DNA of 64,000 nucleotides from Candidatus Woesearchaeota archaeon (GTDB lineage Archaea > Nanobdellota > Nanobdellia > Woesearchaeales > JACPBV01): positions 2,952 through 66,951 of the forward strand of contig JAHWHQ010000036.1 in the NCBI GenBank assembly GCA_019323195.1, in the 5' to 3' direction. A program made the position numbers and the translations under genes. Below, piece after piece: positions 12,233-47,725 of this stretch. The first letter of the stretch is position 1. The number at the start of each line of letters is the position of its first letter. A model generated the notes under the pieces. That model saw only the letters and a program-made list of their open reading frames with translations. It made no database searches and had not been told where the DNA came from.

Positions 12233-12233
12233 T

Positions 12234-16387: not shown

Positions 16388-16446
16388 GGGTTTTTTCTTT
16401 TAGTCTGGAAATTGTTTTTTGACTGAAGGGTTTTCTTTTTATGGGA

Positions 16447-16475
16447 CTACATACTAAGTATGTAGTAGTATGTAG
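16447..16475. promoter_or_regulatory. Palindromic operator-like element ctacatact-a-agtatgtag plus a third half-site agtatgtag
   Basis: A perfect 9-bp inverted repeat with an extra direct half-site, about 120 bp upstream of the RHH gene. A second perfect palindrome cttagttaactaag (16559-16572) and a TATA-like tatatata (about 16530) lie closer to the start. Confidence 0.5.
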
Positions 16476-16590
16476 TTTAAAAGGGAAATCTTTATATACC
16501 AGTTATTTCAGGAATAACTTATATACTTAAATATATATAACTAACCGAACTTATTAAGCTTAGTTAACTAAGTTACTTGGATTGTTCCAA

Positions 16591-16725
16591 ATGACAAGGG
16601 TAAACGTAGAGATCGACAATGAGCTGCACAAGAAAGCTAAGCTGAACGCTCTTCTTAAGAACCAGACTTTAATCGAGTATATTCATGAGGCTCTGAGGGA
16701 AAAGGTAAAGAAAGATGGTAAATAA
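16591..16725 (+). CDS. Ribbon-helix-helix (CopG/Arc/VapB-like) small DNA-binding protein, 44 aa
   Basis: MTRVNVEIDNELHKKAKLNALLKNQTLIEYIHEALREKVKKDGK. The layout is a beta-strand (RVNVEID), helix, helix, which is typical of RHH. It is not in the ORF track because it is under 60 aa. Its last 11 nt overlap the ATG of the giant gene at 16715. Confidence 0.6.
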   Translation: MTRVNVEIDNELHKKAKLNALLKNQTLIEYIHEALREKVKKDGK

Positions 16726-19700: not shown

Positions 19701-22700
19701 CTGCAGGAAGGTGGGATATAGACTTTGAATCTTCCGTTGCTGCAACAGGACCGTGCTGCGGTGATGATGATGCTACAGAGAGGTTTGTTACCTGTGACAT
19801 TGATGATTTTTGCAGCGATACAGCAAAAACAGCGTGCTGCGACAATACGCATGACTGCGTATTTGACGGGGTATGCCATCCTGCCTATGATGCCAGCAAT
19901 CCAAAGCCGGAATCTTTCCTTGATATGAAGAATGGCCTTCCTCTATGGGACACATCTTCTGACATGGAGGTCTGCATCGATGATCCGGTGGCAGGGAGGC
20001 TGGGTTGGAAAGACCCTGATGATTATGATGGTGCCTGCTCTGCCGTGAACAACAGGCCGAACCCTACTAGGTGGATGTCCGGGGCAGATACAAGCTGCGG
20101 CCTTGAGAGGGAAGGGAGGGTATGCGATGATTCTCCCAGCGGGCTAAACACGGCAGATTTCTGCTGCGGCGATGATGAGGGGGAGGTTTTTAGGGAAGAG
20201 GAAGGTTTTGAGAATGCGTGCCTTGTCAAGGGCGGATGCTATTTTGAGGGACAACACTTCCTGGACGGGGAATATTCAGGGGATAATTACTGCCAGAACG
20301 GTGAGGTCATACAGAGAACGAAGCTTATTGCCCTACAGCTGTTGGACATAGCAAACAAGGAAAGCCCTTCGCATTATACATTATTCTGCGACAGCTATGA
20401 GAATGCCCTTAACTATTATAGCTACGACCTTAATCCGCCGTATTCAACTTCAGCCTTTCCTTATACAGATAAAATCAATAATGTATGCCTCTTAAGGCTA
20501 AAAGACCAGGTAATATTCGGGACATCCTTAGATGACCCTATAGACGAAGGGGCTTACCCTTTCATTAACGTACTAAAGGATATAAAAAGCAATCTTGACT
20601 GCAGCAGCGTGCAAGGTGTAGGGGACTGGCAGTTCCATAGCTGCAATACTCTTAAGGTATGGTATAATGATAAGATACAGAGCGTAATATACAGCAATAA
20701 GGACCTAAACCTTGGGAACCTTGATTTTGATGAGAAGTTCTTATTGTTCCTGAAGAACCCGTTCCAGAACATATTTGATTCAATTATCAGCTTATTTGGG
20801 GAGTCGAAGGTTGATCCCGAGGATTATGGGTTCCTGAAAGACAGCAAGAAGTTTTCAAGGATATACCTTGACAGGACAGGGGTCAAGTCCATAAAAGGTG
20901 TTATAGAGGATGATGCAGAAGCAGGAGAGTACCTTTCTATAGCCTATAACTGCTATACTGATGATATATGCGAGACAGTAGAGGCTGCGCAGGAGAGATT
21001 TGGGGCCAAAGGGATATTTGGAGGGGATGAGATCAGCTGCAGTTATAAGCCGGATATCTCCACTTATTATGTTGCAAGCAGATCACCTACCCGGCTGGAC
21101 ATGTGGCCGCAGCTGACAGCAGGCTTGAGGACGAAGAATGTAAAGCTTCCTACAGGGCTTACAATAACCCCGCGCATAAAGGCGCCGGAAAAGGCTATAA
21201 AGGGCTATCCTGTAGAGTTCCAGGCAGATGTTGAGGGGGCCTGCATCTCACCCCCTTATACCTATTCCTGGACTTTTGGGGATGCAGGAACAGGCTCAGG
21301 AGAGGCGCCAACACATGCCTATACTGCAACAGGCAGCTATATTGTGGGCTTAACAGTTGAGGAACAGAAAGATGCTTCAAACCATGGAAGCGGCACCCAT
21401 AGCCTGGAGGTTATTGACATTAAAGATTGTGAAATAAGGGATAAATCAGTTGGATGTGATGCTGGAGCCCTTGAGCAGTGCATCATGTCATTATCCGCAG
21501 GGGCAGATGCTACAGCAGACGAGGCATGCGACAGCGTCTCGCCATACGAGCTTTGCTGCCAGAATATATTCCAGGTGGATACTGCCCCGGGGGGGTGCGG
21601 GGAGGCGGGGCTTATCTCATTGTCACAGACCTTTAACGGCAGGGCAGACGGGTATAACCAGGGGACGTTTGCAAACGACATCTGCATAAGGTCGGCTGTG
21701 GAGGGGATGAAGGCCAGCTGCAGGCCTGTACTTAAAGGAGATACTTTCAATAACCTTGGTGGCGAGGTGTGCGTCCTTTCATTATCTGCTTTTAAGGGGG
21801 GCGTAATCTCGGGATGCGACCCCAATGCTGAAGTGAATATCTACTGCAGGATTATCGATGAGGCTGTAAATGTTGAAAACTGTGAGAACGGCGAGAATGA
21901 TGATGGAAGCGGCCTTGATGACTGCGAGAACGCGGCCTACTGCCCGACAGGGACATTCTGCAATGCGGAGCATACGCAAAGATGCACAAAAGACGCATCT
22001 GACAATCGCCTGTGTGAATGCATCGATAATGATGGTGACGGCTATGGCGCTTGCGCTGGTGCGGATTGTAATGATCCTGCTACATGTGACTGCAATGATG
22101 GTGATCCCTCAATACATCCAGGTGCAGCTGAAACCTGCGATAATGTAGATGAGGACTGTGACAAGCTAGTTGATGAGGGTGTAACAAAACAAGAGGCATG
22201 CAGTGTCGGCTGTCCTGGAAACAAATGCACTTTTACATGCTCAGCAGGGGCGTGGACTGAAGACCTTTCTAACGCTTATAATGGGGCTACTCTAGAGGTG
22301 TGTGATGCTTTGGATAATGACTGCGACGGGGAGATTAATGAGGGTGTAACAAGAATGGTTTTCTGCGGCGACTATGGAGTCTGCAAACTCCAAAGCCATA
22401 CTCAAACATGCAACATAGCTGGTGAATGGGTTCCTGCTACCTGTGATACAACTACAATCCCTAATTATAACACTAATGATGATTGTAGTGATACCTTAGA
22501 TAATGACTGCGATAATTCTGTAAATGAGGATGGGTTGGAGACATTCTATAAAGATGGCGATTCAGACGGGTATGGGCTGCAGACAGATTTACAGGAGGCA
22601 TGTGCAGGTTCGCTGCCTGCTGGCTATGTCGCTTCTAAACCCGACGGTTATGACTGTAATGATGGCGATTGGAGGATTAATCCTGGGAAGACCGAGACCT

Positions 22701-25021
22701 GCGACGGGCTGGATAATGACTGTGACTCAACAACAGCGGACGGCTCTGATGAATCCTGGTTTGGTGCTGCCTGTGACGGCACAGACGCAGATCAATGCGC
22801 TGACGGATTCTATGTATGCACTGCAGAGGTAAAGGCATGTACAGACGATGCTGCCAATAGGATTGAGGTATGTGACGGCGATGATAATGACTGTGATGGT
22901 TTAACGGACGAAAATGTTCTGACTACATACTATCAGGATGCAGATGGAGATGGCTATGGAAAATATTCCAGCACAAAACAGGATTGTACACCACCTGTAG
23001 GTTATGTCGCTTCTAAGCCCGATGGTTATGACTGTGATGACACCAAGCCAGGTATTCATCCAGGAGCCACTGAAACCTGTGATGGCCTAGATAATAATTG
23101 CGTGGATGGAACGGATGAAGGGTGTGATTGTGTAACCGGAGCCACGCGAGACTGCGGGGCAAGCAATACAGCACCATGTAAATATGGCAAAGAAACCTGT
23201 GTAAATGGCGCGTGGAGCGGCAGCTGCATCGGCAATATAGACCCCGCCACTGAAATCTGCGATGGTGTGGATAATGACTGTGACGGCTCAACAGACGAAA
23301 CATATTCAAACTGCCCTGCCGCTTATATTGATGCTCCTAATTGTAAGTCCTATGCAGCCAGCACCTGTAGTAGCGGGAGCTGCACTGCTCAAGCAGCTTC
23401 TGATGCTCCTGATAACACCATATGTGAAGTTAGCACAGGCAGGGTCTGCAAAGGGGGCACTTGTTGTGTTGCTAATCTGGGCCAGCCATGCTTAAATGGT
23501 TATGGCAGTTCCTGCGTTAATCCAGGGACTATACAATGCGACGGAAGCTGCACAGGCTGGACTTTTAAGGATAAAGGTACCTCTTGTGGCGGTTATCTCC
23601 ACCAGTGTAATGGTGCTGGAAGTTGTTGTACAGGCCCTGAGTTAAATGTAGATTGCATCTCTACTTGCGGGAACGGCGTCTGTGATTCTACAGAATCCTG
23701 CAATAAATGCCCTGAAGATTGCCCTATTGCAGCATTTTCTGCCAGCGGAACAGGATGCGCAGCATGCCCCTTAGGATCCTATGCTGGGGAGGGAGGCGTC
23801 ACATACTGCAAGACTCCGATTGACTCCTGCCTAACTGCCTCATTTAGGTATCGTTGTACTGGTTGCGCAGGATCAGCCTGTTGTACCTGGGTTAAAGCAA
23901 GCTGTTTTGTTCCTTACTCTGAAGGCGTCCCCTGCCGAAGTTATACCGAGGATCTTATGTGGAAGATTTCCAGCGACCCATCTATAATTAACGGTCTTTC
24001 ATGCGCCCCTACCTGCCCACAGCTCCTTATCAAATCAGAAGATGGAACCCTAACTTACCAAAACAATATCATTAAGGGAAATATCCTGCCAAACCTGGAA
24101 ACACTAAGGTTTGATAAATTCAGGCAAAGGATTCAGCCTGGCGACAAGATTGTAATACACGAGGCCGGTGCAGGGGATGTTACTTACCTGAACTCTCTTG
24201 AGTTGGTGGGCTATAAGAGCTTAGAGGGAAAGACAGAGGTCCTTCTTGACCAGAGCTTCAACCCTGTAGGGTTTAATCAAGGGGATTTAGTGTCCACCCT
24301 CCCTGAAACTGAGATACAGGATTACCTTGAATACAACGAGATAAATCTTGATGGGGAAGAGGCATACCTTTACCTGACAGGAGGGATAACATCCCAATGG
24401 ACCACCAATCTGCGCGAGGTCGTAATGAAGAAGCTTGCGCACCCTAAACTGTATGAGCTGGCTCCGGGATTTGTGGATCTTGTAGGGACAAACCTTTCCT
24501 TCTATGCCAATATTGTTGTGGAGGTGGAGAAAAATGGTGTCTGGCAGAGATTAAACATGCCTAAGGTTTTGATCATGGAGAATCATGAAACAGCTGTTGT
24601 AAGATTACCTGCAGGGGCATCCAGAGTGCGGACCCGAACAATTTTGGGGATGTACCAGTTCGACAGGTTTGCATTGCTTCCGGTTTCAGATGCAGACCCT
24701 GATATAGAACAAAAAACATTCACATTAAAGGATAATGCCCAATTAGCAGAGACTGACGGCCTATACAGCGAAATTGAGAAGGACCCGCTTGAGATTGACC
24801 TTGCTGATTTTAATGATGCGGAAGAGATACAGAACTACGACAATTTTTACCTTAAGACAAGCGGATATTACCTTTACGGGAAACGGGCAATGGAAGATAT
24901 GGAGAGCACACTTATGGATGATTTAGTTCTGGCCTATAGGCTGAATAAGATTAAAAAATGGCTCAGTTCCCCTGAAGAATATATGGAAGAGATAATGGAT
25001 TTTGCAGGAATGAAGTCGTGA
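16715..25021 (+). CDS. Giant secreted Cys-rich surface protein (2768 aa)
   Basis: Signal/anchor is MVNKKIFVFLVMAVFLASLV. Three N-terminal repeats of about 55 aa (YSDGGQIDTN...ISFVGYVNGDDAIDLKVTC) are encoded at about 16820-17290. At least six Cys-rich modules of the form CCGDDxGE ... ACCxSxxDCVxDGxCY follow. A PKD-like domain (YTYSWTFGDAGTGSGEAPTHAYTATGSYIVGLTV) is encoded at about 21150-21420. MopE-like putative metal-binding motifs (CxDxDxDGYG, DNDCDGxxDE, HPGAxETCDGxDN) at about 21990-23320 recur at least six times. The C-terminal approximately 450 aa are Cys-poor. Confidence 0.85.
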   Translation: MVNKKIFVFLVMAVFLASLVRSIVLLPENPLYGCKLDVQYSDGGQIDTNPTQPWSGGVRFDGSSKRISFVGYVNGDDAIDLKVTCSDPGLQSCILRARDADSVIWKSGRFDGTPVRISFTGPVGSGDAIEVKIYCPSPGVRNNCKLYGRYSDLGQIDSKSWGDGVKFDNSPLEISFTGVVSNDDDIDLKIECDCPCPFGLCCDNCQFRDAGEVCGNVPSDCLSKTGADYCCDKPEVCDGATPGCPPDNDVQDSNYVCRNPKACTEPECCDLPEKCDGLTKYCPTEDKVKDEGVLCKTDTRACYDDGYCDGEFPVCLPNPAPKDTPCTTDDGKSGYCDLDGNCNAGCSSDQTSLSRKSSMTGSSDTNDIPQDLNDQACCDSAEMCVYAGACYLGTSDRSYYLNALGINDVICRSNTWHDCDYKEDYCTGWGVCSIGIGRWIKNGEEQTIGEYNTAYPNPTEKCCGDDAGEKYVSRNVVGSDSDIPADADDVACCSSSTDCVYDGKCYDAGSTDPGSYCKGQKWNGGDDLPEACPLLGGTWDAAMAAGSQCCGDDEGETPKSREGDYADLNDEACCGSDECVLSGGCKPYLATYDLSSYSVLDDSADLEVCMSSGWKDPDFSQEACQAVNNKRTDGGGNLIPTLWMAGGECGYGTGQCDDAPNSPNKMNFCCGDDPWELFNPARSGTKCFIHPDYGCSHDGVDYIYKPMVNGKYTDDDCCKGTCPEGGCCDKNCNYLPDTHICREAASECDVAEKCTGTSPDCPDNAFEPIGTEPPCGKCDGAGNCGECLPTEFNNHRESIKPAIPIDDKYPYFPTLTTDKACCSEIDDCVYDGKCYASNSGRPEGSPPVDIMGAVCYIPESQKCPTCIRGGTWYDCDNDQSFCTNNEWGCSLNWVASGEAGVGEYGAEGTMECCGDDFDTDGNPQEFFKVIKLGSDSTLSVSGTDKACCNSGNDCVENYECYDPGRLHKGGKDYCNATGGWEGGDNSEAACTAITKAAGRWDIDFESSVAATGPCCGDDDATERFVTCDIDDFCSDTAKTACCDNTHDCVFDGVCHPAYDASNPKPESFLDMKNGLPLWDTSSDMEVCIDDPVAGRLGWKDPDDYDGACSAVNNRPNPTRWMSGADTSCGLEREGRVCDDSPSGLNTADFCCGDDEGEVFREEEGFENACLVKGGCYFEGQHFLDGEYSGDNYCQNGEVIQRTKLIALQLLDIANKESPSHYTLFCDSYENALNYYSYDLNPPYSTSAFPYTDKINNVCLLRLKDQVIFGTSLDDPIDEGAYPFINVLKDIKSNLDCSSVQGVGDWQFHSCNTLKVWYNDKIQSVIYSNKDLNLGNLDFDEKFLLFLKNPFQNIFDSIISLFGESKVDPEDYGFLKDSKKFSRIYLDRTGVKSIKGVIEDDAEAGEYLSIAYNCYTDDICETVEAAQERFGAKGIFGGDEISCSYKPDISTYYVASRSPTRLDMWPQLTAGLRTKNVKLPTGLTITPRIKAPEKAIKGYPVEFQADVEGACISPPYTYSWTFGDAGTGSGEAPTHAYTATGSYIVGLTVEEQKDASNHGSGTHSLEVIDIKDCEIRDKSVGCDAGALEQCIMSLSAGADATADEACDSVSPYELCCQNIFQVDTAPGGCGEAGLISLSQTFNGRADGYNQGTFANDICIRSAVEGMKASCRPVLKGDTFNNLGGEVCVLSLSAFKGGVISGCDPNAEVNIYCRIIDEAVNVENCENGENDDGSGLDDCENAAYCPTGTFCNAEHTQRCTKDASDNRLCECIDNDGDGYGACAGADCNDPATCDCNDGDPSIHPGAAETCDNVDEDCDKLVDEGVTKQEACSVGCPGNKCTFTCSAGAWTEDLSNAYNGATLEVCDALDNDCDGEINEGVTRMVFCGDYGVCKLQSHTQTCNIAGEWVPATCDTTTIPNYNTNDDCSDTLDNDCDNSVNEDGLETFYKDGDSDGYGLQTDLQEACAGSLPAGYVASKPDGYDCNDGDWRINPGKTETCDGLDNDCDSTTADGSDESWFGAACDGTDADQCADGFYVCTAEVKACTDDAANRIEVCDGDDNDCDGLTDENVLTTYYQDADGDGYGKYSSTKQDCTPPVGYVASKPDGYDCDDTKPGIHPGATETCDGLDNNCVDGTDEGCDCVTGATRDCGASNTAPCKYGKETCVNGAWSGSCIGNIDPATEICDGVDNDCDGSTDETYSNCPAAYIDAPNCKSYAASTCSSGSCTAQAASDAPDNTICEVSTGRVCKGGTCCVANLGQPCLNGYGSSCVNPGTIQCDGSCTGWTFKDKGTSCGGYLHQCNGAGSCCTGPELNVDCISTCGNGVCDSTESCNKCPEDCPIAAFSASGTGCAACPLGSYAGEGGVTYCKTPIDSCLTASFRYRCTGCAGSACCTWVKASCFVPYSEGVPCRSYTEDLMWKISSDPSIINGLSCAPTCPQLLIKSEDGTLTYQNNIIKGNILPNLETLRFDKFRQRIQPGDKIVIHEAGAGDVTYLNSLELVGYKSLEGKTEVLLDQSFNPVGFNQGDLVSTLPETEIQDYLEYNEINLDGEEAYLYLTGGITSQWTTNLREVVMKKLAHPKLYELAPGFVDLVGTNLSFYANIVVEVEKNGVWQRLNMPKVLIMENHETAVVRLPAGASRVRTRTILGMYQFDRFALLPVSDADPDIEQKTFTLKDNAQLAETDGLYSEIEKDPLEIDLADFNDAEEIQNYDNFYLKTSGYYLYGKRAMEDMESTLMDDLVLAYRLNKIKKWLSSPEEYMEEIMDFAGMKS

Positions 25022-25174: not shown

Positions 25175-26653
25175 TTGGAAATGAAAAAAGCCCAGATAAC
25201 AGTCTTCATAGTCCTAGGGGTAGTGGTTATGGTAATAGCCGGGATGGTGTTCTTTATCAACAGCAGGACATCAGAGGCAGGCCTTGAGAACAGGGTCAAT
25301 AAGATCTATACGGATTTTCTTGGCAGTACAGGCATCAAGGGATATGTCACCAACTGCCTTGAGAGGTCTACAAAGGAGGCTGTAAGGCTGGCAGCGCTGC
25401 AGGGAGGGAAGATATATGATTACCAGGCTGGGGGGGGCTATAGCCTTCCTTCTGTTAACCAGCATGAGAAGATAATGCCTTTTGAGGTTGATGGGGTTGT
25501 GTATAATGTGAGCTATGGTATAAGGGCCCCTAACAGGCTGTTAAGCATCTACCCTAAGTATAATTATTACCCTTATCCAGGCATGCTGGTCAATAATCCC
25601 CAAGCCCAGAAAGCACCTAAGAATGCATACAGTTCTGTTTTTGCACTTCTGGAAAATGATATCCATAACAGGTATTCATTAACCAGCCTGTGCAACTATT
25701 ACGGCCCTAATACCTATGACCTCTCGCCGGATGCAGCCTATACCTGCGAGACAACTACCCTGACAAACATCTCTTTCCAGCAGTACCTCTCTGCCTTTAT
25801 ATTCAACATGACAAAGGAATGCGTCAACTTCCCGCAGTTCAGGTCGCAGACAAAATATAACATCTCTGATGAAAATATAAAGGGTTTTGTCCTGATAGGC
25901 AATGATGATATCTTTGTCAACATAAGGTACCCTATAACTATATCGATAAAGAACTATCCGCCTGTAACAAAGTTCCTGGAGTTTACATACCGGCCTAAGA
26001 TAAGGCTGAAGAAGATGCATGAGCTGGCAGTGCACCTTATAGGGTACAGGCCGGTAGGTGAGAAGGTCAGGGCAGAGGCGGATAATATATTCTTTAATAT
26101 AACCAAGAACGACTCTAATGACTGCTTCGGGGATGATGATATTGGAAGCCAGCCATGCATACTCAAGGGGATGAATGTAACTAAGGTAAGGGATTACTGC
26201 CTTGGAAATGCGCTTTGCGATGAGCAGCTTCCAGGCATGCCTGAGCATTACATGTATACAGATATAATAAACATAACAGACAGGAACTCCTCAATAGACG
26301 GCAGGCCATTAACACTTCTTTTTGCGGTAGAGAACAGGGATCCTGCCCTGAATAATACCAACCCAGACCTGTCTGACCCTTCTTTTGACCCCTCTATGGG
26401 AAAAATAGTTGTTAAGAAGGACGATACTATCACTTTTTTTGCGCTTGACCCTGATGAGGATAATGCGGTCTGTAAGCTAGGGGATGATGAGGATTATTCA
26501 CCTGATGATATTTCTCTTGGTGATTTTACAGATAATGGGGAGTGCGGGTTCAAGGCAAACAAGATCGGCACTTATAGGGGGATAATAAACGTTTCAGACG
26601 ATGAAGGGCTTTATGATTATCAGTATCTGGAGATTACTGTTAATTCTCCTTAG
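25175..26653 (+). CDS. Secreted or surface protein with an N-terminal class-III-like (prepilin-type) signal peptide, 492 aa
   Basis: The N-terminus is MEMKKA|QITVFIVLGVVVMVIAGMVFFI, i.e. basic residues, Ala, Gln at +1, then a long hydrophobic helix. The rest is hydrophilic with many N-x-S/T sequons. There is no enzyme motif. Confidence 0.5.
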   Translation: MEMKKAQITVFIVLGVVVMVIAGMVFFINSRTSEAGLENRVNKIYTDFLGSTGIKGYVTNCLERSTKEAVRLAALQGGKIYDYQAGGGYSLPSVNQHEKIMPFEVDGVVYNVSYGIRAPNRLLSIYPKYNYYPYPGMLVNNPQAQKAPKNAYSSVFALLENDIHNRYSLTSLCNYYGPNTYDLSPDAAYTCETTTLTNISFQQYLSAFIFNMTKECVNFPQFRSQTKYNISDENIKGFVLIGNDDIFVNIRYPITISIKNYPPVTKFLEFTYRPKIRLKKMHELAVHLIGYRPVGEKVRAEADNIFFNITKNDSNDCFGDDDIGSQPCILKGMNVTKVRDYCLGNALCDEQLPGMPEHYMYTDIINITDRNSSIDGRPLTLLFAVENRDPALNNTNPDLSDPSFDPSMGKIVVKKDDTITFFALDPDEDNAVCKLGDDEDYSPDDISLGDFTDNGECGFKANKIGTYRGIINVSDDEGLYDYQYLEITVNSP

Positions 26654-26730: not shown

Positions 26731-26753
26731 AAATACATACTTAATATGTATTT
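26731..26753. promoter_or_regulatory. Palindromic operator-like element aaatacata-cttaa-tatgtattt
   Basis: A perfect 9-bp inverted repeat. Its core ACATACT..(A)GTATGT is related to the palindrome at 16447-16465. It lies about 160 bp upstream of the second RHH gene. Confidence 0.45.
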
Positions 26754-26912
26754 ATCTTATTATTTCATACTAAGTAATCCTTATTGCTGGTGACCTTTAA
26801 AATCGTAACTTTTAAATATTACTTACTAAATAATACAACATAATCTAGGGTATGCAATAGTAATCACCACAAGGGCTAAGATCGTTTTGGGGAAAATGTA
26901 AGAGGAGAGAGA

Positions 26913-27053
26913 GTGAAAGAGAGGATTACGATTACTATTGATAAGGAACTTCTTAATTGGTTAGATAAGAAAATAGATGAAAAGGTTTTTGCAAACAGGT
27001 CTCACGGCCTAGAGTTTCTTATAAAACGGAGGATGGAGGGGGAGAATGAATAA
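26913..27053 (+). CDS. Ribbon-helix-helix (CopG-family) small DNA-binding protein, about 46 aa, GTG start
   Basis: VKERITITIDKELLNWLDKKIDEKVFANRSHGLEFLIKRRMEGENE. It shows the CopG-type signature (RITITIDxELxxxLD...NRSxxIxxLI). The stop TAA at 27051-27053 overlaps the ATG of the giant gene at 27046 (sequence gagAATGAATAAgg). The start codon is uncertain and could be GTG at 26913. Confidence 0.55.
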   Translation: MKERITITIDKELLNWLDKKIDEKVFANRSHGLEFLIKRRMEGENE

Positions 27054-30000
27054 GGCAGCCAGATACAGCCTTGTTCTTGTTGTTATAGTATTGATGGCTA
27101 TGCTGAGCTTTAAGCTTGCTTTGGCAGATGAGGGATGCTGTTATGCTAAGGCAACCCATCAATGCACTTATTCCATTAAAGGAACCCCCCAGGAGACAAC
27201 AGAAACTGCATGTTTAGTGAGCTCTAATAATATCTGGGATGATGACCCTACATGCGCAGGCATACCTGAATGCGAGATGGGATGCTGCTGCCAATCAAAC
27301 CAGCCGCTTTATACGATAAGGGGGGAGTGCGATGTAAGGAAGCTGGAATGGGTCAAGACAAATGAGGAAGGGTGTAATTATCATTGCATAAGCGGAATAC
27401 CAGCTTGCAAGCCAAACTGCGAGGTCAATGGTGGCGAGTGTGTAGGGGTAGGAGGCAAGCTTGCTGCTGCCGGGAAGAGATACTGCGGGGCAGACGGCAG
27501 CTTGTATGACAACTGGGCAGATTGCCTGCAATGCATGGAGGAAGCCTCTCTCCCTGAATGCGGGCTAGATGCCGCGATAACAGTAAAATGCACCTATGAT
27601 GATATTATATATCCTCCTGAGAATGGGGGTTATCTATGCTTAAATGGAGTATATGTTCCTGGCGATAAAAGTGCCTGTGTTGGTGATTGTTCTACAGGCG
27701 GAACGATGATAACGGCAGACTGCTTTTGCGGAGGTGTCAAGAAGTCAGACGGCTATTGCTGCGTGGATGGGATGCATTATCCTACACAGGCAGGATGGAA
27801 AGCGTGCAATGATGCTGCAGGAAGCACCTGTGAAGGGGTTGGCTTTGTGTGCTCGGATGCCTGCGATACAGCCGAAGACAGAAATGCTGCTTTTGATTAT
27901 GGCAGCTGTACAGATGCAACAAAATGCTGCCCCACTGACCTTCCTTACTGCTGCGAGAAAGAGGCTGTCTCTTATGCATACTGCTGCGACCAGTATGAGG
28001 AATGCACCGGAACTGACCTATATAATGAGCCCGAATCTGACCCTTATAGGTATATCTATAAGTCCTGCAATGCAGGTGACCTGTCAAAAAAGCCATGCAC
28101 TGCAGAATGCAAGAGGTTAGAATGCTCGCAGGGAAACTGGAGGATAAACAGCGGGGCTAATACACATCCAACACTTACACACTGTTACTGTGACGGAAGC
28201 CCAAGGGACATATCCTTTGACGGGGGATATTGCTGCGCAGACGGCGGAGATGGAAAATATCAGACCACTCCGTGCATCATTGAGACAGGAGACGTATTAG
28301 GCTATGTTTATAATCTGCTTGATAATGCCCGGATAGCAGATGCAGATATAAATGCCTATAGGTTCGGGACGAAAATAGGCTATACTGTCACCAACAATAA
28401 TGGGGAATATACACTTTCAAACATGCCTTATGGCGGGTATAAGATATATGCTTCAAAAGATGGCTTTAAGGCAAATAGTATAGATGTTGACCTTATTGCC
28501 CCCCAGCTGCAAAACAAGAACATAGGCTTAATACCTTATACTGAGGGACCGTGCGATTCCTGCAGCCCGCCAGCACCCGTCATCACCGCAGAGCCTGTAA
28601 GGGGGAAGGAGGGAATAGAGCTTTCATGGAACATACCTGAGGATACTTCTTTTTGCAGTTCTTCTTTGACTGACAGCTTTGTTATAGAAAAGAAAGAGGC
28701 TGCAAAGAAATTGGCAGAGATGAGGACTGACCAGGCCATTTTAATTGATAATGATGTTTCATGGGATACCACTTATACCTATTCAACAACTGCGCATTAT
28801 ACGACCAATGCCATAAGCACATCTCAAGATTCCTTTCCAGTATCCCCTGGAAGCGCATTTTGCGAGGGCATATACAGCGATGATATGGAGTTCTGCCTTT
28901 CAGACGGCTTTATACAGGCAGACACCAATAATTACAGGTACAGGTGCGACCATAACAATAATCTTGTTAATGTCTATCTCAGTTCACCATCTTCGCAGAT
29001 GGGGCCGAGCTGCACTGATGAGGGCAAGGATGTTTGCGTCGGGCCCGATACAACAGGGGAGACAGAATGCATAGAACAGCCAGACTGCAGGGAGATGGGG
29101 GATTTTAAGCCGTTCGGGCTGTATTATGATGAAGACAGCTGCCTTGACAACGGGGACAGCTGGTGCTATTATGATTCCTCCACTACAATAATAGACAAGT
29201 GCGACAACTGCAGGGCAAAGAGCTGCTATGATTATAAGAGCAAGGAGGCATGCGAAGCTGATAACTGCAGGGCAGGGGGGCTTTATATTGACAGGGAGAC
29301 AGGGGCCAACAATGGATGCAAATGGATACATACATGGGAGGAGTATGGGAAGGGGATATGCTATGACCCTGACTTCAACGGCCAGGAATGCGGCTTATGC
29401 AGCAATGAGGGAGACCTTTTCTTCAATACCGGCTGTACACAAACAATATGCTCGGCTTTAGGAAAATGCTATTCCAGCTCAGATGGATGCATGGAATGCG
29501 CGGAAGGGACAGCATGTGAAGATTATGAGAATGAAGAGGCGTGTGTTGGCATAGTCGGTAATGAACAGGAGATTGATTTTGTGAACAATGCTGGCTGCGG
29601 CATTAATAATATACCTCTTGAAATACAGCCCAGCAATGATGCCTGCGGACTTGGGGTGTGCAAGTGGGACAGCACAATGAAAAGCTGTTACAAGGATGCG
29701 GATGATGATCTTGTTGAAGACTGCGGTGAAGGAGAGGTAATCTGCATGAAGGATTCAAAACCTCCTGTGACAAGCCCGGAGATGAGCATACCTAACATTG
29801 GGCTTTCAGGACATCATATACAGTTTATTGTGCCATATCAGGGGTGGTCTTATGCAGAAAAATTCTATTATTGTGTGGATGCATCCAATACGTGCTGCCC
29901 TACTTCTGAGAAAAACCTTGACTGTGTTGTTAATACAGGGAAGTGTACGGTTATAGGTGGGGTAAACCCTGTGGAAGACCTGGCAGATTCAGAATATACA

Positions 30001-33000
30001 TCCAAGGGCCCTGGCATATATTACATAAGGTATTATTCTGTTGATAATTATAAAAATACTGAAGAGGTAAAAAGCCTTGCCTTTTACCTTGATAAGGACC
30101 CCCCTGATTATTCTTTAACCTACGAGACTGAAAAAGAGGGGGAGAAAGAAGGGCAGGCAATATCCAGCCTGGAGATCAACCTTGAATCTGATGAATGCAT
30201 AAGCTGCTCTTATATGATGGTTGTTCCTTTGATAGGGGATCCAGTTAAAAGCGGCGGTTTTGTTTTAGGAGAGGCAGATAAGGTATCCAAACTGGAATTT
30301 AGCGGCCTTGAGGATGGGATATATACCTGCACAACCAACTGTTTTGATGATGTCGGGAATGAGATGAAGAAGGACTGGCAGATAGTGGTCGATGCTATGC
30401 AGGAGATAACACAGTTCTACCCCTATGATAAGACATTGAAGAAAACACAGATAGACTTTTCTGTCAATACGACCGATGATTCGACATGCACTGCAACGGG
30501 CATCCTTGGGTATTCAGGAGCTGACATAACCTTCACTCAGGAGCAGATATCAAGGAATAAGTTCGCACATACCTATTCAGGGACGTTCGGAGACGGGACA
30601 TACCATCTTGAGGTTGACTGCGAGCCTGTCCTTGGCGTTAAAAAGCCAGACTCTGTCTTCCTTTCATTTACAGTAGACGCAATACCTCCAGCTACTGTGG
30701 TCAAGAGCGGAGGGGAGGTTTTTGACTTCTCAGCCTGGCACAGGACAGATACAGAACCCCCTTTAAAACTAAGCCTGGAATGCGATGACCCTGATCTTGG
30801 TGACCAGCCAGGGGAGTTTGGCTGTGAGCATACAAGCGAATATATAAAATACTGCCTTGGGCCTTCATGCACGCTTAGCGATGACGACCCTTCTTCAATC
30901 CCTATAACAGGGGACTATTCTACCTACATCAGCTATTATTCTGTCGATAAGGGGGGGAATATAGAAACAACACAGACCAAGCTGGTAAAGGTTGATAATG
31001 GGGTGCCTCAATTGAATTTAAACCCGCCAGCCAATGATGTGGTCAATACCCCTGAGATAACAATAACAGGGACCTATTCTGACGGGCTTTCAGGCGTCAA
31101 GGAGGTTGTCATATTCATTATAGATTATGATGATGTTTCTTTTAAGTCTATCAAGATTGCTCCTGCTCCCAGCGGTTTGCTTTCATATAATACTCAGCTG
31201 TTTGGAGGCAGGAACATTATACTTGTCTCTGTAGAGGATAATGCCGGCAATAAGATAGAGGATTCATTTGAGGTGTTCTATGATCTGGATGCTCCTTTGA
31301 TAGATGCAGAGGTATTTAACCATGAGGGCTATGGGATAAGGAATAAGTCCGGAGGTCGATACGCAGAATACGGGAAGGATATAACCTTAGGAGCGGGGAT
31401 CACTGATGATTCATCAATCAGCAGCGCCAAGGTTACACTCGAGTGCAATACTGAATCTTCATTTTCCAGGTGCTCCTCCTATACCAAAACTACTTTCGAT
31501 CTTGAGCAGGATCCTTATGATGCTAAAATCTTTGGGAAGGTCCTTTCAGGCAGTTTGCCAATCGGCAATTATACGGCAACCTTTGAGGCATGGGACAATT
31601 TTAACCAGTACGGCAAGACAAACTTATGGTTCTTGGTAAATGATACAGCTAAGGTAAGCTTCCAATTAAGGCCGGATGCCCCTCCTGTAACCTATTCCCC
31701 TTCCCTTACACTTACAGGGACTGCCAGTGAAGCAGGCATACTGGTAAGCGCTTACCTGTGCGATGAGAACTGTTTAAACTGCGGGGATACTGCAGCTTCT
31801 TCAGATTACGGGGATGCAACAAATGACCCCAAGGAGGGGTTTAGGGATGTCGCTTTAGTTGATCTTGTCTATCTTGATCCTCCTAAAGAGGGGGAAACGA
31901 CCATCCTATGGAAGGGGAGCGCATTTGATTCTATCACAAGGCATATCGGGGCAGGGGATTTCCTTAGGTTTTCAGATGATGCCACTGGAACATTTTATGA
32001 GATACTTTCTATTAACTCTGCATACCATCCTCTTGGGTTTTATATCAATACTATAGAATTGCGTAACGAAATAAAGCAGAATATAAACAGGGGAACTGTC
32101 TCAGCATATGACTATGGCACGCCGACAGGATGGTTTGAATTAGGGCTTGCCCTTAGTTCTGGTACCCAGTGCGTGGTCGTTGCAGCAGAAAGGATTGCTA
32201 CAGGGGTAAGGGCGAAAAGCATAGCCCGGAAGATAACATACGACACCAGCGGTTTTGACATAACCCTTGAAGAGCCGTCTGACGGAGTCGTCAATTATGT
32301 TGATTTTGATGCTGCTGGCAATTCTATGCCTATCAGGATAAAGACAGAAAGAGGAGGTTCTGGCTTTAGGGCGGACTGCGTAATAAGCCATACAGCAGAT
32401 ATCATTGCAGGGGGATTTGCAGGAAAGGTTATGGGTACGACAGATAAGATAACGCATATATTTACTCTCAATTCTGATTCCTGCAAGGAGAACGGAGGGG
32501 ATTACTGCCTTATTGGCGGGACATCTGCTTACCCTGTCAATCACCACCATTATGCGGTTGAATGCACGCCTTCTGATCCTTCTTATGCCAATATGGCTTC
32601 CCAGACCACAGAGGTGTGCTTTACTGCGGCAACTTACGGGCTGCAGACAGGAGGGCTTCCAAGAGGGGTTAATATCTGCCAGGCTTCGACAGGGTGCGGC
32701 TCTTCAGTTCCTGTGGCATGCGGCGGAGCAGTAGACTGCACAGATACAGACCATAGCTCCAGCCAATCTGACTGCATAGAAGAAGACATATGCAAGTGGA
32801 GCGGCAGCTATGGATGCGGCACATCATGCCATCCTGGTTTTGAAGACAATGATAATGATGGGGTCTGTATAGATGCTTCTGTTGTATGCTCAAACAATGA
32901 TAATGACCAGACTAACTGCTTGGCACAAAATGCCTGCAAATGGTGCCCTGCAGGAGCCACATCCAATGCGAACAAATGCCTGCAGGAGAGTTGCGATACC

Positions 33001-41892: not shown

Positions 41893-41901
41893 AACCATAA
41901 A

Positions 41902-44697: not shown

Positions 44698-44698
44698 A

Positions 44699-45193
44699 AT
44701 GATGGCTAAGAAAGGACAGATACCAGGCCAGATATTTATCTACCTCATCGCTCTTATCTTGTTTTCACTTATCCTGCTCTACGGCTATAACTCAATAAGG
44801 GGGTTCAAGGAAAAGTCCGAGCAGGTGTCCTATATCAAGTTTAAGACAGACCTTACCTCAATGGTGAAAAGGGTTTCGCCGGATTATAACACGCTGAAGA
44901 GGGAGAAGCTCTTTATAGGAGGGGATTATACAGAGGTCTGTTTTGTGCAGAGCTATAAGAAGGAGGATAATTTTGATTTTATAAGGACCCATATAGGAAA
45001 TCTCATAATACAGGACAGTTTTGAGAGCAGGGTGGACAAGAACGTGTTTTTGTTCAAGAAAGGGATTGCGGAGTCCTTTGATGTAGGAAATATAAATGTT
45101 ACTGGCGGTTCTGTCTGCATACCGGTAATAAGCGGCAAGGCAAGGATAGAGTTTAAGGGCATGGGGGACCATGTTTTTATATCTGGCTGGTGA
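44699..45193 (+). CDS. Archaeal type-IV-pilin-like protein (class III signal peptide), 164 aa
   Basis: The N-terminus is MMAKKG|QIPGQIFIYLIALILFSLILLYG, i.e. basic residues, Gly, Gln at +1, then a hydrophobic helix. This is the classical prepilin-peptidase substrate layout. It starts 1 nt after the upstream stop. Confidence 0.6.
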   Translation: MMAKKGQIPGQIFIYLIALILFSLILLYGYNSIRGFKEKSEQVSYIKFKTDLTSMVKRVSPDYNTLKREKLFIGGDYTEVCFVQSYKKEDNFDFIRTHIGNLIIQDSFESRVDKNVFLFKKGIAESFDVGNINVTGGSVCIPVISGKARIEFKGMGDHVFISGW

Positions 45194-47682: not shown

Positions 47683-47725
47683 TGGGCAACTAAATGATAC
47701 GTATTATAAATATTTAACTTTTTTA

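What the first reader, a model, noticed from the sequence alone, without database searches (positions are those of the whole stretch)
26913..27053. The same RHH-giant gene arrangement recurs at giant gene 2
A 46-aa CopG-like RHH ORF (KERITITIDKELLNWLDKK...NRSHGLEFLIKRR) ends with TAA at 27051-27053. Giant gene 2 begins at ATG 27046, inside the sequence gagAATGAATAA. Two independent RHH genes sit in the identical position relative to two different giant genes. The two RHH proteins differ clearly in sequence, one VapB/Arc-like and one CopG/NikR-like. This argues for a conserved functional arrangement, a regulator or coupling element for giant-gene expression, rather than coincidence.
Basis: partly seen in the sequence, partly recalled or inferred. 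Interest (0 to 1): 0.75.

Follow-up and report, generated by a model that had tools for sequence, protein, structure and literature searches.

The report
Mini RHH regulators heading giant-gene operons
Two unrelated, 44-46-residue DNA-binding proteins each sit at the head of an operon for giant secreted surface proteins in a tiny DPANN archaeon. The pairing recurs in many related genomes, and each protein family has its own repeated DNA box in front of its gene, so these are most likely self-regulating switches for very costly surface-protein genes.

Summary
GTG 26913-TAA 27053 encodes a real, conserved 46-aa ribbon-helix-helix (RHH) protein, RHH2. Its last 8 nt overlap the ATG (27046) of a 2012-aa secreted protein. 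A second, unrelated 44-aa RHH (RHH1, 16591-16725) overlaps the 2768-aa giant gene 1 by 11 nt.

The window is chromosomal DNA of a Woesearchaeota/Nanoarchaeia (DPANN) archaeon. Both RHHs belong to compact, highly conserved families of 395 and 107 database proteins.

In de-duplicated related loci, the gene directly after an RHH2-family gene is >=1000 aa in 34/73 cases, against 3.5% of background ORFs (p 9e-26). It is >=1500 aa in 17/70. For RHH1 the >=1000-aa figure is 15/52. Starts mostly overlap the RHH stop by 4-14 nt.

The pairing is not exclusive to giants. The same families also head MacB-type ABC exporter, HerA-ATPase membrane protein, pilin-like and beta-CASP genes.

Each family has its own upstream repeat: GTATG boxes phased at 10 nt for RHH2 and TAACTTA boxes for RHH1. 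The RHH2 box has the core of the E. coli NikR half-site, and RHH2 shares NikR's R-x-T-x-T strand.

Best reading: CopG/Arc-like autoregulators co-transcribed and translationally coupled with envelope-protein operons. This is a new member of a known kind. DNA binding and the sign of regulation are inferred, not shown.

The parts
26913..27053 (+). RHH2: 46-aa NikR/CopG-type minimal ribbon-helix-helix protein (GTG start, TAA stop)
   Evidence: ORF. 395 homologues at about 80% identity, with invariant K2 R4 I5 T6 T8 ... FANRSHG. AF2 pLDDT 90 with an extended strand plus two helices. Foldseek top hits are the NikR RHH domain and ParD. The PDB profile hit to E. coli NikR has E 4e-4. Codon-position pattern and start-codon conservation.
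27046..33084 (+). Giant gene 2: 2012-aa Cys-rich secreted protein (signal peptide, CarboxypepD_reg, Big_13, Glucodextran_B-like Ig domains). Its start overlaps the RHH2 stop by 8 nt.
   Evidence: Orthologues keep the same -8 overlap and the MNK... signal-peptide start.
27029..27045 (+). Shine-Dalgarno-like GGAGGATGGAGGGGGAG inside the RHH2 tail codons (R-M-E-G-E), 3-17 nt before the giant-gene ATG
   Evidence: ATGGAGG is conserved 6-10 nt upstream of the downstream ATG in orthologues. An SD-like element is present in 51/77 RHH2-downstream genes against 31% of all genes.
33085..45193 (+). Rest of the predicted operon: giant gene 3 (2935 aa, Big_13/Glucodextran_B/Big_3_3), a 931-aa TSP3-repeat protein and a 164-aa ORF, separated by gaps of 0-9 nt
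26810..26819 (+). Predicted archaeal TATA box (TTTTAAATAT) of the RHH2 operon. Predicted TSS is about 26840.
   Evidence: The block AAAGTTTAAATAT + ACTTACTAAATAATA is conserved in orthologous upstream regions. The TSS position is an inference from the standard archaeal TATA-to-TSS distance of about 26 nt.
26848..26866 (+). Proximal RHH2 box GGTATGCAAT plus a degenerate repeat AGTAATCAC 10 nt later, about +8 to +26 from the predicted TSS
   Evidence: In relatives, GTATG boxes lie mostly 1-60 nt before the start codon, in direct orientation with exactly 10-nt spacing (23 cases).
26733..26776 (.). Distal RHH2-type boxes in inverted orientation (CATAC at 26736 and 26766, 30 nt apart; CATACTAAGTA at 26766)
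   Evidence: The same ACATACTAAGTAAGTA element occurs at a similar distance in L023, L104 and L006.
16591..16725 (+). RHH1: 44-aa Arc-like minimal ribbon-helix-helix protein
   Evidence: 107 homologues, alignment A2, AF2 pLDDT 86. Foldseek top hits are Arc repressor (prob 1.00, TMq 0.83-0.86), CopA_SO, PutA RHH, SvtR, ORF56 and CopG.
16715..25021 (+). Giant gene 1: 2768-aa secreted Cys-rich protein (MopE metal-binding motifs, PKD, disintegrin-like). Its start overlaps the RHH1 stop by 11 nt.
16514..16576 (.). Three RHH1 boxes (ATAACTTAT 16514, GAACTTATT 16546, TAAGTTAC 16567 on the minus strand) between the TATA-like elements and the RHH1 start. This is the only such cluster in the window.
   Evidence: PWM scan. 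ATAAGTTA occurs in 53/72 RHH1 upstream regions against 11/407 controls, p 4e-43. Conserved architecture shown.
16446..16476 (.). Three strong RHH2-type boxes upstream of the RHH1 TATA: a perfect 21-bp palindrome ACTACATACTaAGTATGTAGT plus a third half-site AGTATGTAGT 10 nt on
   Evidence: Of the 72 de-duplicated RHH1 upstream regions, only this window and its near-identical contig L002 contain the GTATGTA box. L166, an RHH1 locus cut by its contig end and not among the 72, also has a GTATG-box cluster upstream of RHH1.
25175..26653 (+). 492-aa ORF after giant gene 1 with a pilin-like (class III-looking) signal peptide. It is the last gene of the RHH1 operon.
   Evidence: Syntenic 490-566-aa ORFs occur in L001, L003 and L012. 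No Pfam hit.

Best explanation
[quoted passage not shown] It consists of a NikR/CopG-type RHH domain and nothing else. It is the first cistron of an ~18-kb operon (RHH2, giant 2, giant 3, a 931-aa and a 164-aa ORF) encoding secreted cell-surface proteins of a DPANN (Woesearchaeota/Nanoarchaeia) archaeon.

Proposed mechanism: RHH2 dimers bind GTATG boxes in its own promoter and 5' region. One proximal box lies just downstream of the predicted transcription start, and two distal boxes lie 75-105 nt upstream. In relatives the boxes form tandem arrays phased at one helical turn. Binding would feed back on transcription of the whole operon, most likely as a concentration-dependent autorepressor in the manner of CopG or Arc, by blocking RNA polymerase recruitment.

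The regulator is the first 140 nt of the transcript, so it reports promoter firing long before the giant ORFs are finished. The giant gene is translated from the same mRNA. Its ATG overlaps the RHH2 stop, and a GGAGG element is encoded in the RHH2 tail, so translation starts by termination-reinitiation and/or direct SD initiation.

RHH1 (Arc-like) does the same job for the giant-1 operon with a different box (TAACTTA). In this lineage the RHH1 promoter also carries three strong RHH2-type boxes, which suggests RHH2 also acts on the giant-1 operon.

Shown: gene reality, fold class, conservation of the arrangement, enrichment for very long downstream ORFs, and family-specific upstream boxes.

Inferred: DNA binding to those boxes, repression rather than activation, co-transcription, translational coupling and cross-regulation.
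For: Gene reality: the codon-position pattern is 0.27/0.13/0.58, the start position is conserved, and independent assemblies call the ORF as a gene.

Fold: AF2 gives pLDDT 90 and 86. Foldseek top hits are all RHH proteins. The family profile hits the E. coli NikR RHH domain at E 4e-4 with the aligned strand eRITiTiD / QRVTITLD. PHROG 'transcriptional repressor' matches at E 2e-5.

Arrangement: the synteny is conserved in L012, L015, L018, L029, L092 and L003-7. The downstream ORF is >=1000 aa in 34/73 RHH2 units and 15/52 RHH1 units, against 41/1187 background ORFs (p 9e-26 and 1e-9). It is >=1500 aa in 17/70 RHH2 units against 13/1187 (p 4e-15). Overlaps of 4, 8, 11 or 14 nt dominate. Large cargo falls into 9 homology clusters, 4 of them major, and one is headed by either RHH family.

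Operators: AGTATGTA occurs in 53/86 RHH2 upstream regions against 4/407 control upstream regions (p 3e-43), and ATAAGTTA in 53/72 RHH1 upstream regions against 11/407 (p 4e-43). GTATG-N5-GTATG occurs in 21/86 against 0/407. Spacing is exactly 10 nt in 23 cases, mostly within 60 nt of the start codon. The box follows the RHH gene whatever the cargo: ABC class 10/12, large class 23/34. Of 54 intergenic GTATG-box clusters in about 2 Mb of loci, 48 lie within 300 nt upstream of an RHH gene. The result stays significant when alignable upstream regions are collapsed into clusters: 14/34 against 20/407, p 8e-9.

Link to NikR: E. coli NikR, whose strand shares R-x-T-x-T with RHH2, binds GTATGA-N16-TCATAC (PMC7055735), the same core as the RHH2 box.

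Coupling: an SD-like element precedes 51/77 downstream genes against 31% of all genes. Termination-reinitiation at short overlaps is established in archaea (PMC6728339).
Against: No experiment and no transcript data are available, so co-transcription, the TSS and DNA binding are all inferred.

In this window, RHH2's own promoter has only one exact proximal GTATG box plus a degenerate repeat. That is weaker than in many relatives, and the strongest RHH2-type boxes sit in front of RHH1 instead.

About a third of RHH2 upstream regions lack the 7-mer GTATGTA (29/86).

Upstream regions of related loci are not independent: 48 of 86 fall in one blastn-linked cluster.

The loci were collected through the RHH genes. 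The converse question, what fraction of giant genes has an RHH, is therefore not measured. At least one operon-initial 1971-aa gene (L004) has none.

Pfam RHH_1 is below its gathering score for every member tested.
Confidence: 0.68

Rival explanations
1. RHH2 and RHH1 are trans-acting regulators, possibly activators, of a wider cell-surface regulon rather than simple autorepressors. Paralogous RHH2 copies with identical DNA-reading residues would cross-talk between several operons in one genome, coordinating or alternating expression of different surface modules.
For: DNA-facing residues K2, R4, T6 and T8 are invariant across the family, while several copies occur per contig or genome: L060 has 4, L086 has 2, and L031 and L070 come from one MAG. 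Three strong RHH2 boxes lie upstream of the TATA box of the RHH1 operon in this window, a position more typical of activation or of regulation in trans. 22 units are tandem RHH2 pairs.
Against: Within the roughly 2 Mb sampled, intergenic box clusters are almost confined to the RHH genes' own upstream regions: 48 of 54. GTATGTA occurs upstream of RHH1 in only 2 of 72 de-duplicated loci. Most boxes lie between the predicted TSS and the start codon, a repressor-type position.
Confidence: 0.17
2. The pairing with giant genes is inherited synteny plus a general habit of small RHH genes to sit first in operons. On this view there is no functional link to gene length, and the RHH may regulate something else or nothing nearby.
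For: The two pairs in the window belong to one syntenic block shared with relatives. The same families head ABC transporter, beta-CASP and small-protein genes. A giant gene without an RHH exists.
Against: At least four non-homologous families of large cargo, and both RHH families for one cargo family, show the same overlap arrangement. The odds ratio against neighbouring ORFs is 11-29. The family-specific boxes travel with the RHH gene across cargo classes. That is hard to explain unless the RHH acts at its own operon.
Confidence: 0.08
3. The small ORFs are antitoxins, or orphaned antitoxins, of type II toxin-antitoxin modules (HicB/ParD/VapB/MazE-like), as some database annotations say.
For: There are weak HMM hits to HicB, ParD, VapB and MazE antitoxin models. 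Some sources name RHH1 homologues 'HicB family antitoxin'. An overlapping downstream gene is typical of TA pairs.
Against: The downstream partners are 0.2-3.3-kaa proteins with signal peptides or TM anchors, or ABC ATPases, not toxins. The RHHs have no C-terminal toxin-binding extension, only 44-46 aa. PADLOC gives no hit. The hits cover only the generic RHH domain and fall below all curated cut-offs.
Confidence: 0.03
4. The small ORF works mainly as a translated leader that loads ribosomes for the giant ORF by translational coupling. The conserved upstream repeats would act at the RNA level in the 5' UTR rather than as DNA operators.
For: Stop/start overlaps of 4-14 nt occur in most units. 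The boxes lie mostly in the predicted 5' UTR.
Against: Strong purifying selection acts on a specific RHH sequence with invariant DNA-reading residues, which a mere leader would not need. Direct repeats phased at 10 nt cannot pair with each other. The predicted 5' UTR does not fold better than shuffles (z -1.1). The giant gene has its own SD.
Confidence: 0.04

Closest known systems
CopG (RepA) of plasmid pMV158 and Arc/Mnt of phage P22: minimal RHH autorepressors
   Same: They are 45-53-residue proteins made of the RHH domain only. CopG is the first gene of the copG-repB operon and represses its own promoter (my own knowledge). Dimers bind adjacent subsites about one helical turn apart. The RHH1 model superposes on Arc and CopG with TMq 0.83-0.86. 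CopG appears weakly in the RHH2 profile search (E 0.38).
   Different: The setting is chromosomal and archaeal, with a TATA/BRE promoter. The cargo is giant secreted proteins rather than a replication initiator or phage genes. Sequence similarity is marginal, and the operators are different (GTATG and TAACTTA boxes).
NikR (nickel-responsive RHH repressor), N-terminal domain
   Same: It is the best sequence and fold match for RHH2: E 4e-4 to E. coli NikR, NCBIfam NikR models at E 1e-6, and Foldseek rank 1-3. The strand motif R-x-T-x-T-x-D and the NRS turn are shared. The enriched box GTATG(T/C)A has the core of the E. coli NikR half-site GTATGA (PMC7055735).
   Different: RHH2 ends after the RHH domain, so it has no tetramerising nickel-binding domain and no nickel sensing. 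Boxes are direct repeats 10 nt apart or CATAC-N3-GTATG palindromes, not half-sites separated by 16 bp. The regulated genes are unrelated to nickel uptake.
CdrS-ftsZ2 of Halobacteria and other Euryarchaeota
   Same: It is an archaeal example of a very small RHH protein co-transcribed with the structural gene it is linked to, and it is widely conserved in synteny (PMC7439475).
   Different: The family and the cargo (tubulin homologue) are different. CdrS was reported as absent from DPANN, and its direct DNA targets were unclear. No family-specific box arrays were described there.
RHH antitoxins of type II TA systems (ParD, HicB C-terminal domain, VapB, CopA_SO)
   Same: They share the RHH fold, a first-gene position with an overlapping downstream gene, and autoregulation of the operon (my own knowledge). 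They are structural neighbours.
   Different: There is no toxin partner and no toxin-binding tail, and the downstream proteins are exported.

Membership tests
Ribbon-helix-helix (MetJ/Arc) superfamily | Beta-alpha-alpha fold: an N-terminal strand with alternating polar/hydrophobic residues, two helices, and a tight G/N-x-S/T turn before helix 2 | tested here: met
   The AF2 models have an extended N-terminus, H11-22 and H29-45 (RHH2, pLDDT 90), and H10-22 and H27-41 (RHH1, pLDDT 86). Foldseek top hits are exclusively RHH proteins with TMq 0.7-0.86. E-values are weak only because the domain is about 45 residues.
Ribbon-helix-helix (MetJ/Arc) superfamily | Score above the curated threshold of a sequence model (Pfam RHH_1 PF01402 and related) | tested here: not met
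   RHH2 scores 13.3 bits against a 20.5 cut-off. 20 of 32 family members hit RHH_1 at E<=0.1, the best at 0.002, and none is above the cut-off. RHH1 hits HicB, ParD and VapB models below their cut-offs.
Ribbon-helix-helix (MetJ/Arc) superfamily | Dimerisation and sequence-specific DNA binding through the paired strands | not testable with these tools
   Support is indirect only: family-specific repeated boxes upstream of the genes.
NikR | N-terminal RHH domain with the R-T-T DNA-reading strand | tested here: met
   The alignment eRITiTiDkeLLnWLD...NRS against QRVTITLDDDLLETLD...NRS has E 4e-4.
NikR | C-terminal tetrameric nickel-binding (ACT-like) domain, giving a protein of about 130-150 aa | tested here: not met
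   The ORF stops at residue 46. Family members are 44-64 aa. The NCBIfam NikR hits cover model positions 1-43 of 129-139 and score 28 bits against cut-offs of 83-175.
NikR | Operator of two GTATGA-type half-sites in inverted orientation about 16 bp apart | tested here: inconclusive
   The half-site core is the same (GTATG). The arrangement differs: 10-nt direct repeats and CATAC-N3-GTATG palindromes.
CopG/Arc-type minimal autorepressor | RHD-only protein of about 45-55 aa encoded as the first gene of the unit it controls | tested here: met
   The proteins are 46 and 44 aa. Each is the first ORF after a TATA-like promoter, and the next gene overlaps by 8 or 11 nt.
CopG/Arc-type minimal autorepressor | Binds repeated subsites in its own promoter and represses it | not testable with these tools
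   Cognate-looking box arrays are present. Binding and the sign of regulation are inferred.
Type II toxin-antitoxin antitoxin (ParD/HicB/VapB/MazE) | An adjacent cognate toxin gene and a toxin-neutralising extension on the antitoxin | tested here: not met
   The downstream genes are exported 0.2-3.3-kaa proteins, ABC ATPases or a beta-CASP enzyme. There is no extension beyond the RHH domain. PADLOC gives no hit.
CdrS | Small RHH in conserved synteny with ftsZ2 | tested here: not met
   No ftsZ lies next to any of the roughly 160 family loci examined. CdrS is reported absent from DPANN (PMC7439475).

The most novel reading that the evidence does not exclude
The two mini-RHH families and their boxes form a portable 'promoter plus regulator' cassette that DPANN archaea place in front of interchangeable host-interaction modules: giant adhesin-like proteins, HerA-type translocase-like membrane proteins, MacB exporters and pilin-like proteins. 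Cross-talk between cassettes, such as the RHH2 boxes in the RHH1 promoter, the tandem RHH2 pairs and several paralogues with identical DNA-reading residues per genome, would wire these modules into a network. That network would coordinate or alternate which giant surface proteins are displayed, a regulatory logic for symbiont-host attachment not yet described in archaea.
Probability: 0.15. Interest if true: 0.7.

Novelty: new member of a known kind. Interest (0 to 1): 0.47.

Why it matters
DPANN archaea are tiny, mostly uncultured symbionts. Their giant Cys-rich surface proteins are thought to mediate contact with hosts, and nothing is known about how these very expensive genes are controlled.

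This analysis gives two concrete, conserved candidate regulators, both currently unannotated by Pfam. It gives their predicted operators (GTATG boxes at 10-nt phase and TAACTTA boxes). It also gives a rule that could improve annotation: a 44-50-aa RHH ORF overlapping the start of a long secreted-protein gene marks the head of an envelope operon.

The predictions can be tested directly in vitro with a 46-residue protein and short DNA, without cultivating the organism. The match between RHH2's strand residues and box and those of E. coli NikR also offers a clean case for studying how one RHH recognition code is reused with a different site architecture.

Tried and rejected
- RNA genes and elements. 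There are no tRNAs and no Rfam family at gathering score in the window. The predicted RHH2 5' UTR folds no better than shuffles (z -1.1). An RNA-structure explanation of the conserved upstream elements was therefore dropped.
- Toxin-antitoxin reading. This was rejected because there is no toxin partner, no antitoxin tail and no PADLOC hit.
- Homology between the pairs. I tested whether the two giant proteins or the two RHHs are paralogues. No significant similarity was found, so the second pair is not a tandem duplication of the first.
- Converse test. A search with the first 500 aa of giant 2, meant to sample giant-2 relatives independently of the RHH, returned nothing at E<=1e-5. The fraction of giant genes that carry an RHH therefore remains unmeasured. 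Only ORFs >=1500 aa that happened to lie in the fetched loci could be inspected. Most are internal genes of RHH-headed operons, and one is an RHH-less operon head.
- Literature. Searches for RHH with DPANN, Woesearchaeota with giant surface proteins, and CopG with archaea and giant genes found no description of this arrangement. The library is incomplete, so this is not proof of absence.
- Single shared motif. CATACTAAGTA occurs at both upstream regions and was first taken as a shared operator. The family-wide analysis showed it is part of the RHH2-type box, and that RHH1 has a different box of its own.
Full report
**1. What is in the sequence**

The window is archaeal chromosomal DNA. It encodes TBP (2035-2592), an intein-containing MCM (2739-6164), both PolD subunits (8693-13808, minus strand) and Orc1/Cdc6 (13839-15050, minus strand). 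Close homologues of the small ORFs come from MAGs named Woesearchaeota, Nanoarchaeota or Nanoarchaeia, which are DPANN lineages.

The flagged ORF is exactly as described. GTG 26913 to TAA 27051-27053 encodes 46 aa. ATG 27046 of a 2012-aa ORF lies inside gagAATGAATAA, an 8-nt overlap.

The earlier pair is also real. ATG 16591 to TAA 16725 encodes 44 aa and overlaps ATG 16715 of a 2768-aa ORF by 11 nt.

Both giant proteins begin with classical signal peptides and are Cys-rich multi-domain proteins. Giant 1 has MopE motifs, PKD and disintegrin-like domains. Giant 2 has CarboxypepD_reg, Big_13 and Glucodextran_B-like domains.

Giant 2 is followed without gaps by giant 3 (2935 aa), a 931-aa TSP3-repeat protein and a 164-aa ORF. 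Giant 1 is followed by a 492-aa ORF with a pilin-like signal peptide. The two giants are not detectably homologous, and neither are the two small proteins.

**2. Are the small ORFs genes, and is the start right?**

Both are called as genes in independent assemblies.

RHH2 has 395 database relatives of 44-64 aa at about 70-90% identity. Invariant residues are K2, R4, I5, T6, T8, D10, L14, W16, D18 and the block F-A-N-R-S-H-G. RHH1 has 107 relatives with a different invariant pattern, MTRvNIEi..ELHKKAKLNALLqNkTLIeYihEAL.

Across 80 distinct RHH2-family DNAs, pairwise differences at codon positions 1/2/3 are 0.27/0.13/0.58, the signature of purifying selection on a protein.

No in-frame start exists upstream of GTG 26913. 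The codon preceding K-E-R-I-T is ATG (54), GTG (16) or TTG (5) in 75 of 95 distinct members, and it is GTG in the nearest orthologues. In this window and its nearest orthologues a GAGGAG/AGGAG-type element precedes it; across the family an SD-like element is seen in 36 of 95 members. The inferred start is therefore confirmed as well as sequence comparison can confirm it.

**3. Fold**

AlphaFold2 on the family alignments gives confident models: pLDDT 90 for RHH2 and 86 for RHH1. Each has an extended N-terminal segment followed by two helices.

Foldseek against the PDB returns only RHH proteins at the top.
- For RHH2: the NikR RHH domain, then ParD antitoxins.
- For RHH1: Arc repressor (probability 1.00, TMq 0.83-0.86), the CopA_SO DNA-binding domain, PutA RHH, the archaeal-virus regulator SvtR, Sulfolobus plasmid ORF56 and CopG.

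The RHH2 family profile hits E. coli NikR residues 2-32 at E 4e-4. NCBIfam NikR models hit at about 1e-6, but only over their first ~43 positions and far below cut-off.

Pfam RHH_1 is below its gathering score for every member. These families are therefore effectively unannotated.

**4. Does the arrangement recur?**

I fetched 80 species-representative genome loci with the RHH2 alignment and 79 metagenome loci with the RHH1 alignment. I then analysed them with my own scripts.

The whole block RHH1, large gene, middle gene(s), RHH2, giant, giant is conserved in L012, L015, L018, L029 and L092. The RHH2-giant-giant part is also conserved in L003-L007, L014, L019 and L023.

De-duplicated counts, excluding the window and its near-identical contigs:

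| Family | Units | Next ORF >=1000 aa | Next ORF >=1500 aa |
|---|---|---|---|
| RHH2 | 88 | 34 of 73 evaluable | 17 of 70 |
| RHH1 | 73 | 15 of 52 | 6 of 49 |

The background is 1187 complete ORFs >=80 aa in the same loci. It is inflated by other members of the same operons, and still only 3.5% are >=1000 aa and 1.1% are >=1500 aa. Odds ratios are 24, 29, 11 and 13, with p = 9e-26, 4e-15, 1e-9 and 5e-5.

The downstream start overlaps the RHH stop by 4 nt (ATGA) in 25 RHH2 and 36 RHH1 units, and by 8, 11 or 14 nt in most others.

The large cargo proteins (>=800 aa) fall into nine homology clusters, four of them major:
- a giant-1 type, all RHH1-headed;
- a giant-2 type, with 15 RHH2-headed and 4 RHH1-headed members;
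- a class headed by tandem RHH2 pairs;
- a further mixed class.

The association is therefore not just one inherited synteny.

It is also not exclusive to giants. The same RHH2 family heads several other gene types:
- MacB-type ABC exporter operons (ATPase, CARDB protein, two FtsX permeases, and at least 12 loci);
- beta-CASP nuclease genes;
- 1.3-1.6-kaa membrane proteins with CarboxypepD_reg repeats and a HerA/DUF87/TrwB-like ATPase.

RHH1 also heads ~250-aa proteins that start KRGQVTIFII, a pilin-like signal. Nearly all partners start with a signal peptide or TM helix.

Other ORFs >=1500 aa in these loci are mostly internal genes of RHH-headed operons. One (L004, 1971 aa) heads a unit without any RHH.

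**5. Cis elements**

An unbiased k-mer comparison used the 220 nt upstream of the RHH genes against 407 other gene-upstream intergenic regions from the same loci. It gives family-specific motifs.
- AGTATGTA/ACTACATA occurs in 53/86 RHH2 upstream regions against 4/407 controls (p 3e-43).
- ATAAGTTA/ATAACTTA occurs in 53/72 RHH1 upstream regions against 11/407 controls (p 4e-43).
- Each motif is rare upstream of the other family: 2/72 and 8/86.

GTATG cores are spaced exactly 10 nt apart in direct orientation in 23 cases, with 20 and 30 nt also seen. They also form CATAC-N3-GTATG palindromes. Most lie within 60 nt of the start codon. GTATG-N5-GTATG occurs in 21/86 RHH2 upstream regions and 0/407 controls.

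The boxes accompany the RHH2 gene whatever the cargo: ABC class 10/12 and large class 23/34 with at least 2 boxes, against 20/407 controls.

In about 2 Mb of loci, 48 of 54 intergenic box clusters lie within 300 nt upstream of an RHH gene.

Related upstream regions are not independent. I therefore collapsed them into blastn-linked clusters. The excess remains: 14/34 against 20/407, p 8e-9, for RHH2, and 6/11 against 11/407, p 7e-7, for RHH1.

Orthologous RHH2 promoters share this order of elements:
- a TATA box (AAAGTTTAAATAT);
- ACTTACTAAATAATA;
- about 15 nt of variable sequence;
- TATGTAnTAGTAATCACCACAAAGACTAAG or tandem GTATG boxes;
- an SD;
- the start codon.

With the usual archaeal TATA-to-TSS distance (my own knowledge), the boxes start a few nucleotides downstream of the TSS. 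That is the position used by archaeal repressors that block RNA polymerase recruitment.

In the window:
- The RHH2 promoter has a TATA box at 26810-26819, one exact box at 26850-26854 with a degenerate repeat 10 nt on, and two inverted boxes at 26736 and 26766.
- The RHH1 promoter has three RHH1 boxes (16514, 16546, 16567), the only such cluster in the window.
- Upstream of the RHH1 TATA sit the three best RHH2-type boxes of the whole window: a perfect 21-bp palindrome at 16446-16466 plus a third half-site at 16467-16476.

**6. A link to a solved system**

E. coli NikR binds GTATGA-N16-TCATAC (PMC7055735). Its strand QRVTITLD aligns with RHH2's KERITITID, with the R-x-T-x-T pattern identical. 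From memory of the NikR-DNA structure (2HZV), Arg3, Thr5 and Thr7 read the half-site bases.

The box found de novo upstream of RHH2 genes, (A)GTATG(T/C)A, therefore matches what that recognition strand is known to read. This was not built into the search, and it is the strongest single argument that RHH2 binds these boxes.

RHH2 lacks the nickel-binding tetramerisation domain. It is not a NikR, and the site architecture differs (one-turn direct repeats).

**7. Translation of the giant gene**

The conserved RHH2 tail M-E-(G/E) is encoded by ATGGAGG, which lies 6-10 nt before the giant-gene ATG in orthologues. An SD-like element precedes 51/77 RHH2-downstream genes against 31% of all genes in the loci.

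Short overlaps support termination-reinitiation coupling in archaea (PMC6728339). Coupling is thus plausible but not required, because the giant gene has its own SD.

**8. Interpretation**

The best-supported model is a CopG/Arc-style minimal autoregulator that is co-transcribed with an operon for exported envelope proteins and sits as its first cistron. About half of these operons begin with a gene of at least 1000 codons.

I can only offer an inference for why such a regulator would be favoured there. A 140-nt 5' cistron reports promoter activity minutes before an 18-kb transcript is complete. This would give fast negative feedback on a very costly transcription unit.

The sign of regulation, co-transcription, the TSS, coupling and RHH2 action on the RHH1 promoter are all inferences.

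Alternatives considered are a wider trans-acting regulon, mere synteny, a TA antitoxin, and a translated leader or RNA element. The evidence listed in the rival-explanation section weighs against each. In particular there is no toxin partner and no significant RNA structure.

**9. Comparison and novelty**

The system works like CopG/Arc (RHH-domain-only, operon-first autoregulators). For RHH2, DNA reading probably works as in the NikR DNA-binding domain. The nearest archaeal analogy is CdrS-ftsZ2, a small RHH co-transcribed with its structural gene, reported absent from DPANN (PMC7439475).

I found no description of RHH genes paired with giant genes in DPANN, but the library searched is incomplete.

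I rate this a new member of a known kind. It comprises two previously unannotated RHH families with predicted operators and a statistically robust but non-exclusive association with giant secreted-protein operons. It is useful and testable, but it is not a new principle.

**10. Limits**

- All loci were retrieved through the RHH genes, so the share of giant genes that have an RHH is unknown. An attempt to sample via giant 2 failed.
- ORF calling in loci was a simple longest-ORF heuristic.
- Truncated ORFs were treated as censored.
- Statistics treat de-duplicated loci as independent, which they are only partly.

Noticed in passing
window 16446-16476: The three strongest RHH2-type boxes of the window form a perfect 21-bp palindrome ACTACATACTaAGTATGTAGT plus a third half-site. 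They sit upstream of the TATA box of the RHH1-giant 1 operon, not at RHH2's own promoter. Among 72 de-duplicated RHH1 upstream regions this is seen only here and in the near-identical L002. L166, an RHH1 locus cut by its contig end and not in that set, also has such a cluster. This suggests lineage-specific cross-regulation of giant 1 by RHH2.
   Followed up: partly
window 15117-15135: Two overlapping RHH2-like boxes (TTGTATGTAAGTATGTTC) lie in the intergenic region between orc1/cdc6 (minus strand, start 15050) and the Yip1-domain gene (15575). This region may also hold the replication origin.
   Followed up: no
window 25175-26653: The 492-aa ORF after giant gene 1 starts MEMKKAQITVFIVLGVVVMVIAG, which looks like an archaeal class III (type IV pilin-like) signal peptide. 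It has no Pfam hit. Syntenic 490-566-aa ORFs occur in relatives, and many RHH1-headed ~250-aa ORFs elsewhere start KRGQVTIFII.
   Followed up: partly
L052 4781-9652, L057 10138-14247 (and about 16 similar loci): Tandem pairs of RHH2-family genes head 1.3-1.6-kaa proteins. These combine an N-terminal TM helix, CarboxypepD_reg repeats and a C-terminal HerA/DUF87/TrwB-like ATPase, an unusual fusion that might be a translocase at the cell surface of DPANN archaea.
   Followed up: partly
L008 10001-14547: An RHH2-family gene overlaps by 4 nt the ATPase gene of a MacB-type ABC exporter operon (ABC_tran, a CARDB protein, two MacB_PCD/FtsX permeases). At least 12 species-level loci show RHH2 directly before such an ATPase.
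   Followed up: partly
window 2739-6164: The MCM helicase gene is interrupted by an intein with LAGLIDADG homing-endonuclease and HTH_3 domains.
   Followed up: no
window 46810-55326 (minus strand): A glycosylation island lies right after the giant-gene operon: UbiA prenyltransferase, a GT1/GT4, two PMT_2 mannosyltransferase-like proteins and two GT2. G+C falls to 0.30 at 50-54 kb against about 0.45 nearby, which may indicate horizontally acquired or fast-evolving surface-glycan genes.
   Followed up: partly
window 45275-46824: A 171-aa HTH_3 (XRE-type) protein gene overlaps by 4 nt the start of an NAD-dependent epimerase/dehydratase gene. This is another small regulator coupled to the first gene of a surface-sugar pathway.
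   Followed up: no
L145, L150, L157, L127 versus window 27046: Giant-2-type cargo proteins (N-terminal signal peptide followed by a G-C-C motif) are headed by RHH2 in 15 loci and by RHH1 in 4. The regulator family in front of one cargo family has therefore been exchanged during evolution.
   Followed up: partly
L090, L091: Distant RHH2-family members (48-52% identity) occur in Methanomassiliicoccales contigs without a large downstream ORF, so the family is not strictly confined to DPANN. Many genome records with hits are labelled 'uncultured Methanosarcinales' and one 'Aminicenantes bacterium'. These labels look like placeholders or mis-binned records.
   Followed up: no
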